DNA of 64,000 bases from Euglena gracilis (lineage: Eukaryota): the NCBI GenBank assembly GCA_039621445.1, contig CP154954.1, positions 42,716,632 through 42,780,631 of the forward strand. Reading direction: 5' to 3'. Made by a program: the position numbers and the translations under genes. A model generated the notes under the pieces. The model saw only the letters and a list, made by a program, of their open reading frames with translations, ran no database searches and was not told where the DNA came from. Positions 41,301 to 44,300 of the stretch are shown here, one piece after another (position 1 is the first letter of the stretch; every line of letters begins with the position of its first letter).

Positions 41301-44300
41301 CCCCCCCTGGTGGGGTCGGATCAGGAGTGCCTTGGAGTGCCTGCCCAGGCAGCCCCCCCCCTGGGGTGGGGTCGGCACCACCTTAAAAAACAGCCTCTCC
41401 TGCCCCCCTGCCCCCCGCAGTACTTCAGAAATTCAGCCCGGGTGGTGAATGGCTTGTTTGGTGTTTGGGGCACCAGGCGGGCTGCGGCCGAGGTACATCC
41501 CTGACAGCACGGGGAGGTCCAGCAGCAGCATGCCCTCCGGGTGCCACTGCATGCACTCCCGCATGATCTGCCGCAGCGCCGCGAAGCCCGGCCGCAGCAT
41601 GAGGCCAGGGTTCGATATAAGGACAGGTGGGGGGTGGTTCGGACCCCCCCCCCTGCGGGCCAGGAGGGGGGGGGACACCCCCCCACCTAAACAGTTTGCG
41701 CGGTCTGGGTTACCGAAAATTTCTGACCCCCCAAAACGACCAAAAGTGCCATTTTGGGCACTTTTTGGGCAAAAATGTGCCAAAAATGCAAAAAATTTTC
41801 GGCGCAAAGCGCCGGGGGAAAAAATTGACCCTTTTTGGGGGGGGTCCCGGGAACCCCCCGAGGGTCGGTCTGGACCCCCCTGGCAGGAGGGGGGGGGGTG
41901 GTCCAGACCCCCCCTGCGGGCCAGGAGGGGAGGGGGGTGGGGGGGACACCCCCCCACCTAAACCATGTACGCCCTCCTTATATCAAACCCTGCATGAGGC
42001 GGTGGGGCCGCTCGGGGACCGGGAACATGCGGCCGTGGATGCGGCGCTCCCCGGGGCGCGGCATGAGCACGGCATAGTCTGGCACCGCTGCCCGGCACAG
42101 GCCAGGCCACAGATGGGCGGTGGGTTTGAGTTGTTTTCCCATAGAGGGGGGGGGCAGATTTACACAAATTCATTAACCGTGAAGGTTTTGGGGGAAAAGG
42201 GTGCGCCCCAAGCAGCAACGCCGTGGAATCCCTTGGTCGTGCCCAGTTACCAGATGCCAGAAATTATCCCTGCATCCACTCCAACCACACATGTTTTTTG
42301 CTTGACTTTCATGGCGATTACGTGACTCTTTGCCAAATCTCCACGGTACCTGCTTGGGATCATTTGGGATGATTCACAAACATTGTCTTCAACTCCTCAA
42401 TGTCCTCTTGCAACTGCAACTGCATCCATTCACTGGCATTTGTTTGAATATCCCAAATGGTTCTAAAGCTTACCAACAAATGTCACAAAATGGGGAAAAT
42501 GGTCCCAGAAGATTCAAAAATAGCCACAAAACGGCCAACGCATGGCTTAAATGACTTGAAACGACCCAAAATTGCCCTCCAAATGCCACGAATGGCTCAA
42601 AAAATGCCAACAAATGCCAAAAATGGCAGAAAATGGGCCGAAAAGCTCTGAGCCGTATGCCACATGCCATTTGCTCATATGACCAATCAGCCCAACTTTG
42701 ACCCAAAATCAGGCCAAATTAGCCCTAAATGGCCGTCGTTGGTAAAACGTGGTTCAAATGGCCAAAATGGGCACAATAAGAGACATTTTGGCAAAAGATG
42801 GCTCATAAATTCAAAACATTGGTTTGATTTTGGAAAAAAAATGCCAACATTGCCGAGCATCATCCAGCGTCGTTTCACGTGCTTGGTGTGCCCCAGGATG
42901 TCAGGGCTGTGCTACCACACACAGAACGAATGTCTGAATGCACAGCACACAAGAGGAAATCCGTATGGGGATAAAACTGCATTTTTTTGTGAAAACCCCG
43001 CAGAGGGCGTGAACGAAAAGAAGATTCAAGGCCTTCAAGACGCTTAGCCACGCCCTCCTTCGTGAGCCTCGGCCGTGATGGGAAGGGGATGTGGTCCAGC
43101 TCCTTGAAGAGGAGGGAGGACAGGAAACTGGGCCCCTCAAAGAGGTCCACATCCTGCGGTGGTCGCAGGGCAGGGGCGGCGGAGCAGGATGTGCCCGAGC
43201 GGGGGTTGGAGGAGGGTCAGCAGTTCGACAGAGAACGGTCCCCCGGTGTCCACCGTGCTGGGTTGTTTGGCATGACCTGCGGAACAATCCCCCACCACAG
43301 TTGCACAAATGCAGGAAGAATTGCAGGAGCACCATTTTTCCTGTTATCCTGCATTCTCAATGCAGGATAAACCATGGGCAGGGGAAAACAGGCAATGGCT
43401 GGTAGACAAGAATTCAAACACATGAGTTGTAATATGGTGTTGACAACATGATTTGTCCCGATGCAAATCTATTTTTGTGCAGGAAAAACCATGATTGAGG
43501 GAGTCAGCAAACTGTTAAACTTGCATTGGCATTCACAAACGTGAGGACTCAATCCTTCAGCCTTGGAGGTTGGCTGCAACTTTTGGGTTCAATTGAGGTT
43601 TTTTCTGATTAAAAAAAAAACTGCAAAAAAACGTGCAGTTTCTTTTTAAAAAAATAAAAAAACTGCAAAAAAACTGCAAAAAAAAACTGCAGAAAAACTG
43701 GAAAAAAAACTGAAAAAAAAACTGCGAAAAACCCAAAATGTGAATAACTGCAAAAGAAAACTGCAAATATTGCATGGTGCATAATTCCCCCCTCCCTTCC
43801 ACTGCCGACGCTGACCCTCTCTCCCGCCCCGCCCTGGATGGCAGGGGCCGGGCCAGCACCTCATCCGGGAGGGGCAGGCGGCCGGGGGGCAGCTCGAGGG
43901 GGTGGGTGGCGGGGGCGTACACCCAGTGGAGGGGGCTCGTTGGGTGCAGCTTCTCCGTGATGACGATGAGGTCCGGCATGGAGTGCAGCAGCGCCCACAG
44001 CGAGTGGCGGGTGGCCCGGCACGGCAAATAGTGTGGGGGGGGTTGGTGGACGATGGTCTCCAATTCCGAGGGGGGGGGGGTTGCGGCACTGACATTGCGC
44101 GCCTCTTGAACGGGACCCACAAACCAAAAAGAGTGGTGCACCAAGAGTCTTGGAAGCCCATATACATACATACATACATACATACATACATACATACATA
44201 CATACATACATACATACATACATACATACATACATACATACATACATACATACATACATACATACATACACATACATACATACATACATACATACATACA

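What the first reader, a model, noticed from the sequence alone, without database searches (positions are those of the whole stretch)
41598..42000. Second exonic TIR/TSD intron with a near-perfect 18-bp TIR
Seen: TIR CAGGGTT(C/T)GATATAAGGA and perfect TSD CATGAGGC. Excising 41601-41995 joins two GC3-rich frames into [27 protein letters not shown]. Relatives occur at 50924-51297 and, upstream of the EMC10 start, at 63677-64000. Inference: a recently active intron-generating (introner-like) family.
Basis: partly seen in the sequence, partly recalled or inferred. Interest (0 to 1): 0.8.

Follow-up and report, generated by a model that had tools for sequence, protein, structure and literature searches.

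The report
Young transposon posing as Euglena-type intron
A small, recently inserted DNA transposon sits inside a coding exon, and together with its 8-base target duplication it forms exactly the signal that Euglena-like algae use to cut out their unusual "nonconventional" introns, which makes it a likely live example of how those introns arise.

Summary
There is a 387-bp non-coding element at 41606-41992 with an 18-nt TIR (17/18) and a perfect 8-bp TSD (CATGAGGC). Removing 41601-41995 (395 nt) joins two GC3-rich frames on the minus strand.

The flanks are exonic and joined in RNA. The 395-nt skip stands in two transcript contigs and in 2 raw RNA reads.

It is not a spliceosomal introner: none of its 10 possible registers is GT/GC-AG. 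In one register it matches the published Euglena nonconventional (NC) intron code N3-CAG...CTG-N5|purine. The 3 + 5 spacer bases come from the 8-bp TSD, and an 18-bp stem closes the ends. None of the four neighbouring introns of the gene can be GT/GC-AG either, and one fits the same code exactly.

The family is very high-copy and hAT-like (8-bp TSD, CAGGG termini). Relatives at 50924-51297 and 63677-64000 are real but about 25% diverged.

One DNA run also carries the empty site, so the insertion is polymorphic and young. The joined RNA could therefore come from an empty allele, and RNA-level removal from the filled allele is predicted, not shown.

The parts
41598..41605 (.). left copy of the 8-bp target site duplication (CATGAGGC on +)
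   Evidence: D15
41606..41992 (.). 387-bp non-autonomous TIR element (E1), hAT-like MITE, GC 0.62, no ORF of its own
   Evidence: Similarity to other copies in run X1 ends at 41604/41605 (13 + 12 contigs) and at 41992/41993 (35 + 24 contigs) (table 7).
41606..41623 (.). left terminal inverted repeat CAGGGTTCGATATAAGGA
   Evidence: I18
41975..41992 (.). right terminal inverted repeat (17 of 18 complementary; the mismatch is a G.U pair in the sense-strand RNA)
   Evidence: I18; (18 consecutive pairs)
41993..42000 (.). right copy of the 8-bp target site duplication
   Evidence: D15
41601..41995 (-). predicted nonconventional intron (395 nt): 3 nt of TSD + element + 5 nt of TSD. It is the only one of the 10 registers that fits N3-CAG...CTG-N5|A.
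   Evidence: register +4; joint 'skips 395, both 9'
41996..42086 (-). upstream half of the 202-nt host exon
   Evidence: transcript contigs of X15 and X17 lie on 41992-42086 (table 8)
41490..41600 (-). downstream half of the host exon
   Evidence: transcript contigs of X15 and X17 lie on 41490-41596 (table 8)
43161..43839 (-). neighbouring intron A: a nonconventional intron that fits the code exactly (ATC-CAG...CTG-CGACC|A), with a degenerate flank repeat (5 of 8)
   Evidence: The joint is in RNA runs only (X15, X17, X21) and in 0 contigs of X1. Register +1; fold.
42087..43079 (-). neighbouring intron B, 993 nt, non-GT/GC-AG in both registers; does not fit the strict code
44006..44559 (-). upstream intron C: 3/5 geometry with GTG...CAC and a 9-bp perfect inverted repeat; first exon base is A
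   Evidence: loose end located; register -2
40657..41489 (-). downstream intron D: 3/5 geometry with CGC...GCG; first exon base is A
   Evidence: loose end located
50924..51297 (.). relative E2 (374 bp; TIR 12 of 14; TSD GACGGGCC/GGCGGGCC, 7 of 8). Probably also exonic on the minus strand, where it fits N3-CAG...CTG-N5|G.
   Evidence: no RNA laid on it
63677..64000 (.). relative E3, cut off by the end of the window
23448..23705 (.). relative E4; only the right TIR is kept
46893..47073 (.). relative E5; only the right TIR is kept

Best explanation
E1 (41606-41992) is a young, still polymorphic insertion of a very high-copy, non-autonomous, hAT-like DNA transposon (MITE). It sits in a 202-nt coding exon on the minus strand, in a genome that behaves like a euglenid's.

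Insertion duplicated 8 bp of the target. The element's ends are CAG...CTG at the tips of an 18-bp inverted repeat.

In the sense pre-mRNA the two arms pair. The euglenid nonconventional-intron (NC) pathway cuts 3 nt upstream of CAG and 5 nt downstream of CTG, in front of a purine. Since 3 + 5 = 8 equals the TSD length, the piece removed (41601-41995) is the element plus exactly one TSD equivalent, and the pre-insertion reading frame is restored without a scar. The element therefore acts as a new nonconventional intron, not a spliceosomal one.

Shown:
- the transposon anatomy;
- the exonic site;
- the joined mRNA;
- the fit to the code;
- the terminal stem;
- the polymorphism.

Inferred:
- the filled allele's transcript is processed this way;
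- the host is a euglenid;
- the mobilising enzyme is a hAT-type transposase.
For: (1) Anatomy. An 18-nt TIR (17 of 18) and a perfect 8-bp TSD; chance is excluded.

(2) Multi-copy family whose similarity stops at the TIR tips. In DNA run X1, 13 + 12 contigs run on unlike before 41604/41605 and 35 + 24 run on unlike behind 41992/41993. Summed word depth over the four element bins is 0.59-1.46 million, against 46-120 in unique bins (tables 2 and 7; the tool warns that this depth is not a copy number). In the window there are 2 complete copies, 1 cut copy and 2 one-ended copies.

(3) Exonic and joined in RNA. The joint 41596->41992 'skips 395, both 9' stands in:
- X15: 1 contig of 1920 nt, side 95;
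- X17: 1 contig of 3017 nt, side 95;
- X21 (on record as RNA): 2 raw reads with 2 starts, side 54.
The same contigs also skip 42087-43079 and 43160-43838. The four exon pieces give one open frame with GC1/2/3 = 0.75/0.42/0.94.

(4) Intron type. 0 of 21 registers of the gene's five introns is GT/GC-AG. E1 (register +4) and intron A (register +1) fit N3-CDG...CH'G-N5-6|R. Introns C and D have the same 3/5 geometry and A as the first exon base.

(5) Published code (PMC12501133, Results read). CAG/CTG, a fixed 3-nt donor spacer, a 5-nt (6 tolerated) acceptor spacer, a purine at the acceptor exon start and pairing behind CAG / before CTG are required. Together they sufficed for fully artificial 50-bp introns knocked into an E. 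gracilis exon.

(6) Fold of 41601-41995 (-). 3 free nt, 18 consecutive pairs, 5 free nt; z = -6.85; 0 of 100 shuffles fold as well.

(7) Youth. The TSD is perfect, and an empty site stands in X1. One contig (depth 51.9) has 21 + 9 letters left of the joint, while X1 has 0 contigs with the two neighbouring RNA joints, so it is not cDNA.

(8) Precedent. A strain-specific NC intron in E. agilis gapC has eight-nucleotide direct repeats (PMC4770533, passage seen).
Against: (1) The joined form also stands in a DNA run (X1), so joined transcripts may come from empty alleles. No read or contig was shown to come from a filled allele and be spliced.

(2) The variants give no phasing. At 41502 / 42074+42080 the window is T/A,T, X15 is C/A,T, X17 is T/G,G and X1 is C/G,G, which is all four combinations (table 3).

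(3) X15 and X17 are only guessed to be RNA by the tool. They do behave as RNA: depth is zero over the unique intron bins 42132-42359 and 42702-43043, and they carry intron skips that are absent from X1.

(4) X21 supports the joint with only 2 reads.

(5) The host organism is coded and no genome is held. 'Euglenid' rests on intron type alone.

(6) No transposase was found in the window: 0 of 40 long ORFs had any Pfam family, and the only domain seen is a reverse transcriptase.

(7) The in-window relatives are only 68-84% identical.

(8) Intron B does not fit the code.
Confidence: 0.65

Rival explanations
1. Unspliced disruptive insertion. E1 is a recent MITE insertion that simply breaks one allele, with a stop 5 codons into the element. 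All joined transcripts come from empty alleles or strains. The fit to the nonconventional code is a by-product of CAG...CTG termini that are common in hAT-like elements.
For: The empty-site form is present in DNA run X1 (table 5 and record 4). No allele-specific link ties a filled allele to a spliced transcript (table 3). A retained element gives a premature stop. PMC12501133 reports that unspliced transcripts were not detected and suggests decay, so a failure to splice would leave little trace in RNA.
Against: Every tested requirement of the code is met, including the spacer lengths and the purine. Those requirements were sufficient for artificial introns. A neighbouring, fixed intron of the same gene has the same CAGGG...CCCTG 3/5 architecture and is removed from RNA but not from DNA.
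Confidence: 0.25
2. Classical introner: the element is removed by the spliceosome using splice sites supplied by the element and/or the TSD, as in Micromonas or dinoflagellates.
For: A multi-copy TIR/TSD element in an exon whose flanks are joined in RNA.
Against: 0 of the 10 registers compatible with the observed joint has GT/GC...AG ends. The nearest AG upstream of the 3' junction lies inside the element, and using it would not give the observed joint (read). None of the four other introns of the gene can be GT/GC-AG in any of their 11 registers.
Confidence: 0.03
3. DNA-level removal: the empty form in DNA arises by precise somatic or programmed excision of the element rather than being the ancestral allele.
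For: The joined form stands in a DNA run.
Against: The empty-site contig differs from the window at 5 letters and 1 gap in 242 nt of flank (table 8, record 4), as expected of another haplotype and not of an excision product of the same molecule. From general knowledge (recalled), excision of cut-and-paste elements usually leaves footprints.
Confidence: 0.04
4. Assembly artefact: the element was placed in the exon by misassembly of a high-copy repeat.
For: The family is extremely abundant (table 2). No run laid here was shown to bridge both junctions of the filled form.
Against: A misjoin would not create a perfect 8-bp duplication of the exon sequence on both sides of complete TIRs. The X1 contig covering 41368-41605 ends exactly at the TSD end, as expected at a branch between filled and empty paths (record 3).
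Confidence: 0.03

Closest known systems
Euglenid nonconventional (NC) introns; splicing code 5'-N3CDG-/-CH'GN5-6|R (Nomura et al. 2025, PMC12501133; also PMC11170887, PMC3935182)
   Same: No GT/GC-AG ends. CAG at +4..+6 and CTG at -8..-6. CAGG at +4..+7 and CCTG at -9..-6, as in the E. gracilis logo. There is a 3-nt and a 5-nt spacer, a purine at the acceptor exon start, a terminal stem and direct repeats at the junctions ('slidable').
   Different: This one is an intact member of a very high-copy TIR family with a full, perfect 8-bp TSD, and an empty allele still exists. In the papers read, the transposon origin is a hypothesis and no source family is named ('origins ... remain unclear'). Removal at the RNA level is not separately shown here.
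E. agilis gapC intron 4 (strain ACOI 323), a strain-specific NC intron with eight-nucleotide direct repeats (PMC4770533, passage seen)
   Same: A recently gained, polymorphic NC-type intron with an 8-nt direct repeat at the junctions.
   Different: The authors attributed the repeat to double-strand-break repair. Here the repeat flanks a multi-copy TIR element, which points to transposition.
Introners (Micromonas, Aureococcus, dinoflagellates, fungi; PMC11282704 section 5, PMC12130899)
   Same: Non-autonomous TIR/TSD elements whose insertion in exons creates an intron, with the TSD contributing part of the splicing signal.
   Different: Introners are removed by the spliceosome at GT/GC-AG (or other spliceosomal) sites. 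Here none is available, and the register is set by a stem with CAG/CTG.
hAT-superfamily MITEs, and the Ds-made intron in maize (Giroux et al. 1994, seen only in the reference list of PMC3935182)
   Same: 8-bp TSD, short TIR beginning CAGGG, non-coding, a few hundred bp, high copy number.
   Different: No hAT transposase was found (window only). The hAT TIR and TSD consensus motifs are recalled, not taken from a call. The TSD CATGAGGC does not fit the recalled nTnnnnAn preference.
Noncanonical transposon-derived introns of Fritillaria borealis and Amoebophrya (PMC11282704 section 6)
   Same: TIR/TSD-bearing introns with non-GT-AG borders, tolerated by a changed splicing system.
   Different: Those have other border motifs (AG-AC/AG-AT; 3-5 nt TSDs) and are thought to be removed by a modified spliceosome.

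Membership tests
Euglenid nonconventional intron | no GT/GC-AG borders in any register compatible with the mRNA | tested here: met
   0 of 10 registers
Euglenid nonconventional intron | CAG (CDG) after a 3-nt spacer at the 5' end and CTG (CH'G) before a 5-6-nt spacer at the 3' end | tested here: met
   register +4: ATG-CAG...CTG-GCCTC; rule from PMC12501133
Euglenid nonconventional intron | purine as first base of the acceptor-side exon | tested here: met
   A, the complement of 41600
Euglenid nonconventional intron | base pairing behind CAG and before CTG that brings the ends together | tested here: met
   18 consecutive pairs; 3 and 5 nt free; z = -6.85
Euglenid nonconventional intron | removed from the pre-mRNA of the allele that carries it | tested here: inconclusive
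   The joint is in X15, X17 and X21 RNA, but the joined form is also in DNA run X1.
Euglenid nonconventional intron | host is a euglenid (or other euglenozoan with this pathway) | tested here: inconclusive
   The organism is coded. This is inferred from the four other introns of the gene, none of which can be GT/GC-AG; one fits the strict code and two have the same geometry.
Euglenid nonconventional intron | excised as a full-length circular RNA | not tested
   This property is taken from PMC11282704 section 6. No back-joint was listed for the RNA runs.
Introner (spliceosomal, transposon-made intron family) | multi-copy element family | tested here: met
Introner (spliceosomal, transposon-made intron family) | spliceosomal splice sites (GT/GC...AG or other known pairs) supplied by the element, the TSD or the exon | tested here: not met
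   0 of 10 registers is GT/GC-AG; by inspection of that output, no register reads AT..AC
Introner (spliceosomal, transposon-made intron family) | many copies serve as introns in unrelated genes | not testable with these tools
E2 is probably exonic.
hAT-like MITE | 8-bp target site duplication | tested here: met
   E1 8 of 8, E2 7 of 8; 7 such CAG...CTG elements in the window against 1, 0 and 0 in the controls
hAT-like MITE | short TIRs starting with the hAT-type motif (YARNG; motif recalled, from no call) | tested here: met
   CAGGG at both tips
hAT-like MITE | non-coding, under about 1 kb, similarity between copies ends at the TIR tips | tested here: met
   387 bp; loose ends at 41604/41605 and 41992/41993 (table 7)
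hAT-like MITE | a cognate hAT transposase with matching TIRs in the same genome | not testable with these tools
   None in the window (0 of 40 ORFs with any Pfam family); no genome is held.

The most novel reading that the evidence does not exclude
The cutting register of euglenid nonconventional splicing (3 nt before CAG, 5 nt after CTG) is matched to the 8-bp target duplication of a hAT-like MITE superfamily with CAG...CTG tips.

Under this reading, an insertion of such an element into a transcribed exon, in either orientation, is erased from the mRNA without a scar. The only target requirement is a purine at TSD position 6 of the sense strand.

The nonconventional pathway would then be an RNA-level transposon-removal system, and these MITEs would be the living source of most Euglena introns. 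That would also explain why most of those introns carry short direct repeats at their borders. This locus would be an insertion caught while still polymorphic.
Probability: 0.45. Interest if true: 0.85.

Novelty: new member of a known kind. Interest (0 to 1): 0.68.

Why it matters
The origin of euglenid nonconventional introns has been an open question since at least 2013. They are reported as 71.8% of all introns in E. agilis (PMC12501133). The MITE hypothesis is repeated in every paper I read, but none names a source element. PMC3935182 states that no transposable element was then known in euglenids, PMC6221363 asks whether the transposon theory is correct, and PMC12501133 says the origins remain unclear.

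This locus offers a concrete test case. It is an intact, high-copy TIR element with a perfect 8-bp TSD in an exon, with an empty allele still around, and it fits the experimentally defined splicing code to the base.

The arithmetic 3 + 5 = 8 gives a simple mechanistic link between transposition and the splicing register. I did not find this link stated in the sections and passages I read, or by searching two of the papers for 'eight', '8 bp' or '8-bp'. It makes sharp predictions that can be checked genome-wide and in the published knock-in assay.

Tried and rejected
- Whole genome: none is held, so no genome-wide copy count or exon fraction.
- Rfam and tRNA scans of the window: 0 matches each.
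- Host protein: Pfam found nothing on the two exon halves. On three exon/ORF pieces it gave only a sub-threshold Herpes_UL52 hit at E = 0.12. The search for homologous proteins with the 55-aa exon against longer proteins scored none of its 45 candidates.
- Transposase: 0 of 40 long ORFs had a Pfam family. Of 4 ORFs, one had RVT_1.
- Taxon from the reverse-transcriptase ORF via the protein atlas: only generic RVT_1 clusters, so no use.
- Family outside this genome: the TIR 18-mer (one degenerate base) in metagenome contigs gave 17 loci. 0 of 17 is similar to E1 beyond 22 nt, so these are chance matches.
- The look-up of sequencing runs: no RNA holder was listed among the indexed rows. The rows guessed as RNA were laid instead.
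- ORF openness as evidence of exons: rejected, because in this GC-rich DNA several frames stay open across most of the 7 elements. Codon-phase GC was used instead.
- Generic scan for any TIR plus a perfect 8-bp repeat: 9 hits against 3-6 in shifted controls. This is too noisy to count families, so the CAG...CTG-specific scan was used.
- Phasing the insertion with the variants at 41502, 42074 and 42080: all four combinations occur, so no conclusion.
- Literature: searches found no paper in the held library that names a MITE family or a hAT element as the source of Euglena NC introns. Supplements, including the intron datasets of PMC12501133, were not opened and may bear on this.
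Full report
**What is in the sequence**

At 41606-41992 lies a 387-bp stretch bounded by an 18-nt inverted repeat: arms 41606-41623 and 41975-41992, 94% complementary (I18). It is flanked by the direct repeat CATGAGGC at 41598-41605 and 41993-42000. (D15) reports it as the 9-mer GCATGAGGC, whose extra G is also the last TIR base.

The TIR word with up to 3 mismatches occurs 6 times in the window against 0.01 expected; 0 of 100 shuffles reached 6.

A scan for CAG...CTG inverted repeats (at least 11 of 14) found 182 pairs, 7 of them flanked by an 8-bp repeat (at least 7 of 8). With the repeat sought 8, 16 or 24 nt further out, the counts were 1 of 182, 0 of 181 and 0 of 181. 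The anatomy is therefore real, and it is the anatomy of a cut-and-paste DNA transposon with an 8-bp target site duplication.

**The coding context**

The gene is on the minus strand. Excising 41601-41995 (395 nt) fuses two frames into one open frame. With the element in place, a stop follows 5 codons into it.

Open frames mean little in this GC-rich DNA, because several frames stay open across most of the 7 elements examined. I therefore used codon-phase GC:
- After excision, the two 90-nt flanks have the same phase pattern: 0.73/1.00/0.40 and 0.83/0.90/0.53.
- The four exon pieces defined by RNA give GC1/2/3 = 0.75/0.42/0.94 with no stop.

**RNA and DNA evidence**

All 24 runs listed carry one coded organism label. 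I laid two contig sets guessed to be RNA (X15, X17), one raw RNA-seq run (X21) and the best DNA holder (X1) on 40650-44050.

| Joint | X15 | X17 | X21 (raw RNA) | X1 (DNA) |
|---|---|---|---|---|
| 41596->41992, skips 395, both 9 | 1 contig (1920 nt, side 95) | 1 contig (3017 nt, side 95) | 2 reads, 2 starts, side 54 | 1 contig, depth 51.9, side 21 |
| 42086->43080, skips 993 | 1 contig | 1 contig | 4 reads | 0 contigs |
| 43159->43839, skips 679 | 1 contig | 1 contig | 1 read | 0 contigs |

X15 and X17 have zero depth over the unique intron bins 42132-42359 and 42702-43043, so they behave as RNA.

**The complication**

X1, the DNA run, also has the 395-nt skip. One contig of depth 51.9 has positions 22-262 on 41992-42233 and its first 21 letters left of the joint. 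With the 9 shared letters, that is 30 letters of left flank. X1 has 0 contigs with the two neighbouring RNA joints, so this is not cDNA in the library. An empty site exists as DNA.

That contig differs from the window at 5 letters and 1 gap, as another haplotype would. Another X1 contig covers 41368-41605 and ends exactly at the TSD end, as expected at a fork. Whether X1 also holds the filled form cannot be told from this output.

Two things follow:
- The insertion is polymorphic and hence young, which agrees with its perfect TSD.
- The joined RNA may come from empty alleles.

The variants do not phase it. At 41502 / 42074+42080 the window is T/A,T, X15 is C/A,T, X17 is T/G,G and X1 is C/G,G, which is all four combinations (table 3).

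**What kind of intron it could be**

I listed every register that gives the same mRNA for the five introns of the gene. The two outer introns were located by finding the contigs' loose ends in the window. None of the 21 registers has GT/GC...AG ends, so the spliceosomal 'introner' reading does not hold.

| Intron | Reported skip (+ strand) | Registers | Fit |
|---|---|---|---|
| C (upstream) | 44008-44561 | 3 | 3/5 geometry with GTG...CAC inside a 9-bp perfect inverted repeat; first exon base A |
| A | 43160-43838 | 4 | strict code in register +1 (43161-43839): ATC-CAG...CTG-CGACC, then A |
| B | 42087-43079 | 2 | does not fit |
| E1 | 41597-41991 | 10 | strict code in register +4 (41601-41995): ATG-CAG...CTG-GCCTC, then A |
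| D (downstream) | 40657-41489 | 2 | 3/5 geometry with CGC...GCG; first exon base A |

It is the nonconventional-intron code defined genetically in Euglena, 5'-N3CDG-/-CH'GN5-6|R (PMC12501133; abstract, all of Results and the Discussion read). That code requires:
- CAG/CTG;
- a strict 3-nt donor spacer;
- a 5-nt acceptor spacer, with 6 tolerated;
- a purine at the acceptor exon start;
- pairing behind CAG and before CTG.

Fully artificial 50-bp introns built on these rules were spliced.

The E. gracilis logos (CCAGG at +3..+7, CCTG at -9..-6; PMC11170887 section 10) are matched at CAGG and CCTG.

The fold of 41601-41995 (-) leaves 3 nt free, pairs 18 consecutive bases and leaves 5 nt free. The one TIR mismatch is a G.U pair in the sense RNA. 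z = -6.85, and 0 of 100 shuffles fold as well. E2 and intron A also close their ends.

**The mechanistic point**

The 3 and 5 spacer bases of E1 are the inner 3 and 5 bases of the two TSD copies, and 3 + 5 = 8, the TSD length. An element with CAG...CTG tips and an 8-bp TSD is therefore removed together with exactly one TSD equivalent, restoring the pre-insertion mRNA.

Because the tips are palindromic, this holds in either orientation. The only demand on the target is a purine at TSD position 6 of the sense strand: A for E1, and G for E2 if it is transcribed from the minus strand.

I did not find this link stated in what I read. Word searches for 'eight', '8 bp' and '8-bp' in PMC11282704 and PMC12501133 gave nothing relevant. 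The nearest statement is that a strain-specific NC intron in E. agilis gapC has eight-nucleotide direct repeats, which its authors ascribed to break repair (PMC4770533, passage).

**The family**

Within the window:
- E2 (50924-51297) is complete: TIR 12 of 14, TSD 7 of 8.
- E3 (63677-64000) is cut by the window end.
- E4 (to 23705) and E5 (to 47073) keep only the right TIR.
- Identity to E1 is 68-84% in blastn pieces, and the 4-way alignment has 70% mean column identity.

These named relatives are old or belong to other subfamilies.

Of X1's contigs, 28,970 pieces lie on the 3.4-kb stretch at 95% identity or more, including two other repeats there. Summed depth is 0.59-1.46 million over the element against 46-120 in unique bins; the tool warns that this is not a copy number. 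Similarity breaks off at the TIR tips: 13 + 12 and 35 + 24 contigs run on unlike at 41604/41605 and 41992/41993.

The central part of E1 is also shared with elements that have other termini (38309-38418, 20473-20573, 25393-25495).

No transposase lies in the window. The 8-bp TSD and CAGGG tips point to the hAT superfamily. That consensus is recalled from general knowledge, not taken from a call.

E2 is probably exonic too. Its right flank has phase GC 0.77/1.00/0.50, and its left flank shows the same but weaker pattern.

**Host**

The organism is coded and no genome is held. I infer a euglenid from the intron types. The papers state that such introns are known only from euglenids and diplonemids (PMC6221363, abstract in the search listing). 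I did not try to go further.

**Comparison with what is known**

The locus works like a euglenid nonconventional intron and is built like a hAT-type MITE. It resembles introners only in the general sense of a transposon that makes an intron.

The MITE origin of NC introns is a standing hypothesis:
- PMC3935182, passages: no transposable element was then known in euglenids.
- PMC6221363: asks whether the transposon theory is correct.
- PMC12501133 Discussion: 'origins ... remain unclear'.
- PMC12621601: the same idea for diplonemids.
- PMC11282704 sections 5-6: calls the features TIR and TSD-like.

My searches of the held library found no paper that names a source family. Supplements were not opened.

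**Verdict**

My best reading, at 0.65, is a young, polymorphic hAT-like MITE insertion in an exon that functions as a nonconventional intron. The main rival, at 0.25, is that it is simply a broken allele and the joined RNA comes from empty alleles.

The deciding experiment is RT-PCR, or read laying, in a clone that carries only the filled allele.

Noticed in passing
window 4831-5261, 34943-35230, 53536-53949, 52723-53220, 28978-29621: Five further CAG...CTG TIR elements with 8-bp flanking repeats: three perfect (GCCTCCAT, ATTCCAAC, CTTGCTCC) and two at 7 of 8. None shows coding periodicity in its flanks, so they are probably intronic or intergenic.
   Followed up: partly
window 1964-2613 and 55161-55629: Two elements with 14 of 14 TIRs and perfect 8-bp repeats but other tips (CCAGGG... 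and CATACATC...). For the first, the 3/5 register would not remove a whole TSD equivalent. The scan that found them is noisy: 9 hits against 3-6 in the controls.
   Followed up: no
window 38309-38418, 20473-20573, 25393-25495: The central roughly 100-nt module of E1 recurs at 78-84% identity inside elements that have quite different termini. This suggests modular MITE families that share a core.
   Followed up: no
window 40657-44561 (minus strand): All five introns of the host gene lack GT/GC-AG in every register (0 of 21). Four of the five have the 3-nt/5-nt geometry with A as the first exon base.
   Followed up: yes
window 41106-41447 and 43614-43727: Two more very high-copy repeats inside the flanking introns. 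Summed depth in X1 is 180,000-465,000 and about 150,000, against 46-120 in unique bins (table 2).
   Followed up: no
window 41502, 42074, 42080: Variants on either side of the insertion occur in all four combinations among the window, X15, X17 and X1 (table 3). Possible causes are recombination, several gene copies or chimeric contigs.
   Followed up: partly
window 58636-61296 (-): An 887-aa open frame with a reverse-transcriptase domain (RVT_1, E = 2.1e-11), likely a non-LTR retroelement. A second 487-aa ORF at 57647-59107 (-) overlaps it and has no Pfam family.
   Followed up: partly
window about 40100-40560, 44110-44450, 10941-11495: Long microsatellite or low-complexity tracts, seen as Cys/Val-rich, Tyr/Ile/His/Thr-rich and Tyr/His/Asp repeat translations. 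Two of them lie inside introns of the host gene.
   Followed up: no
   Followed up: partly
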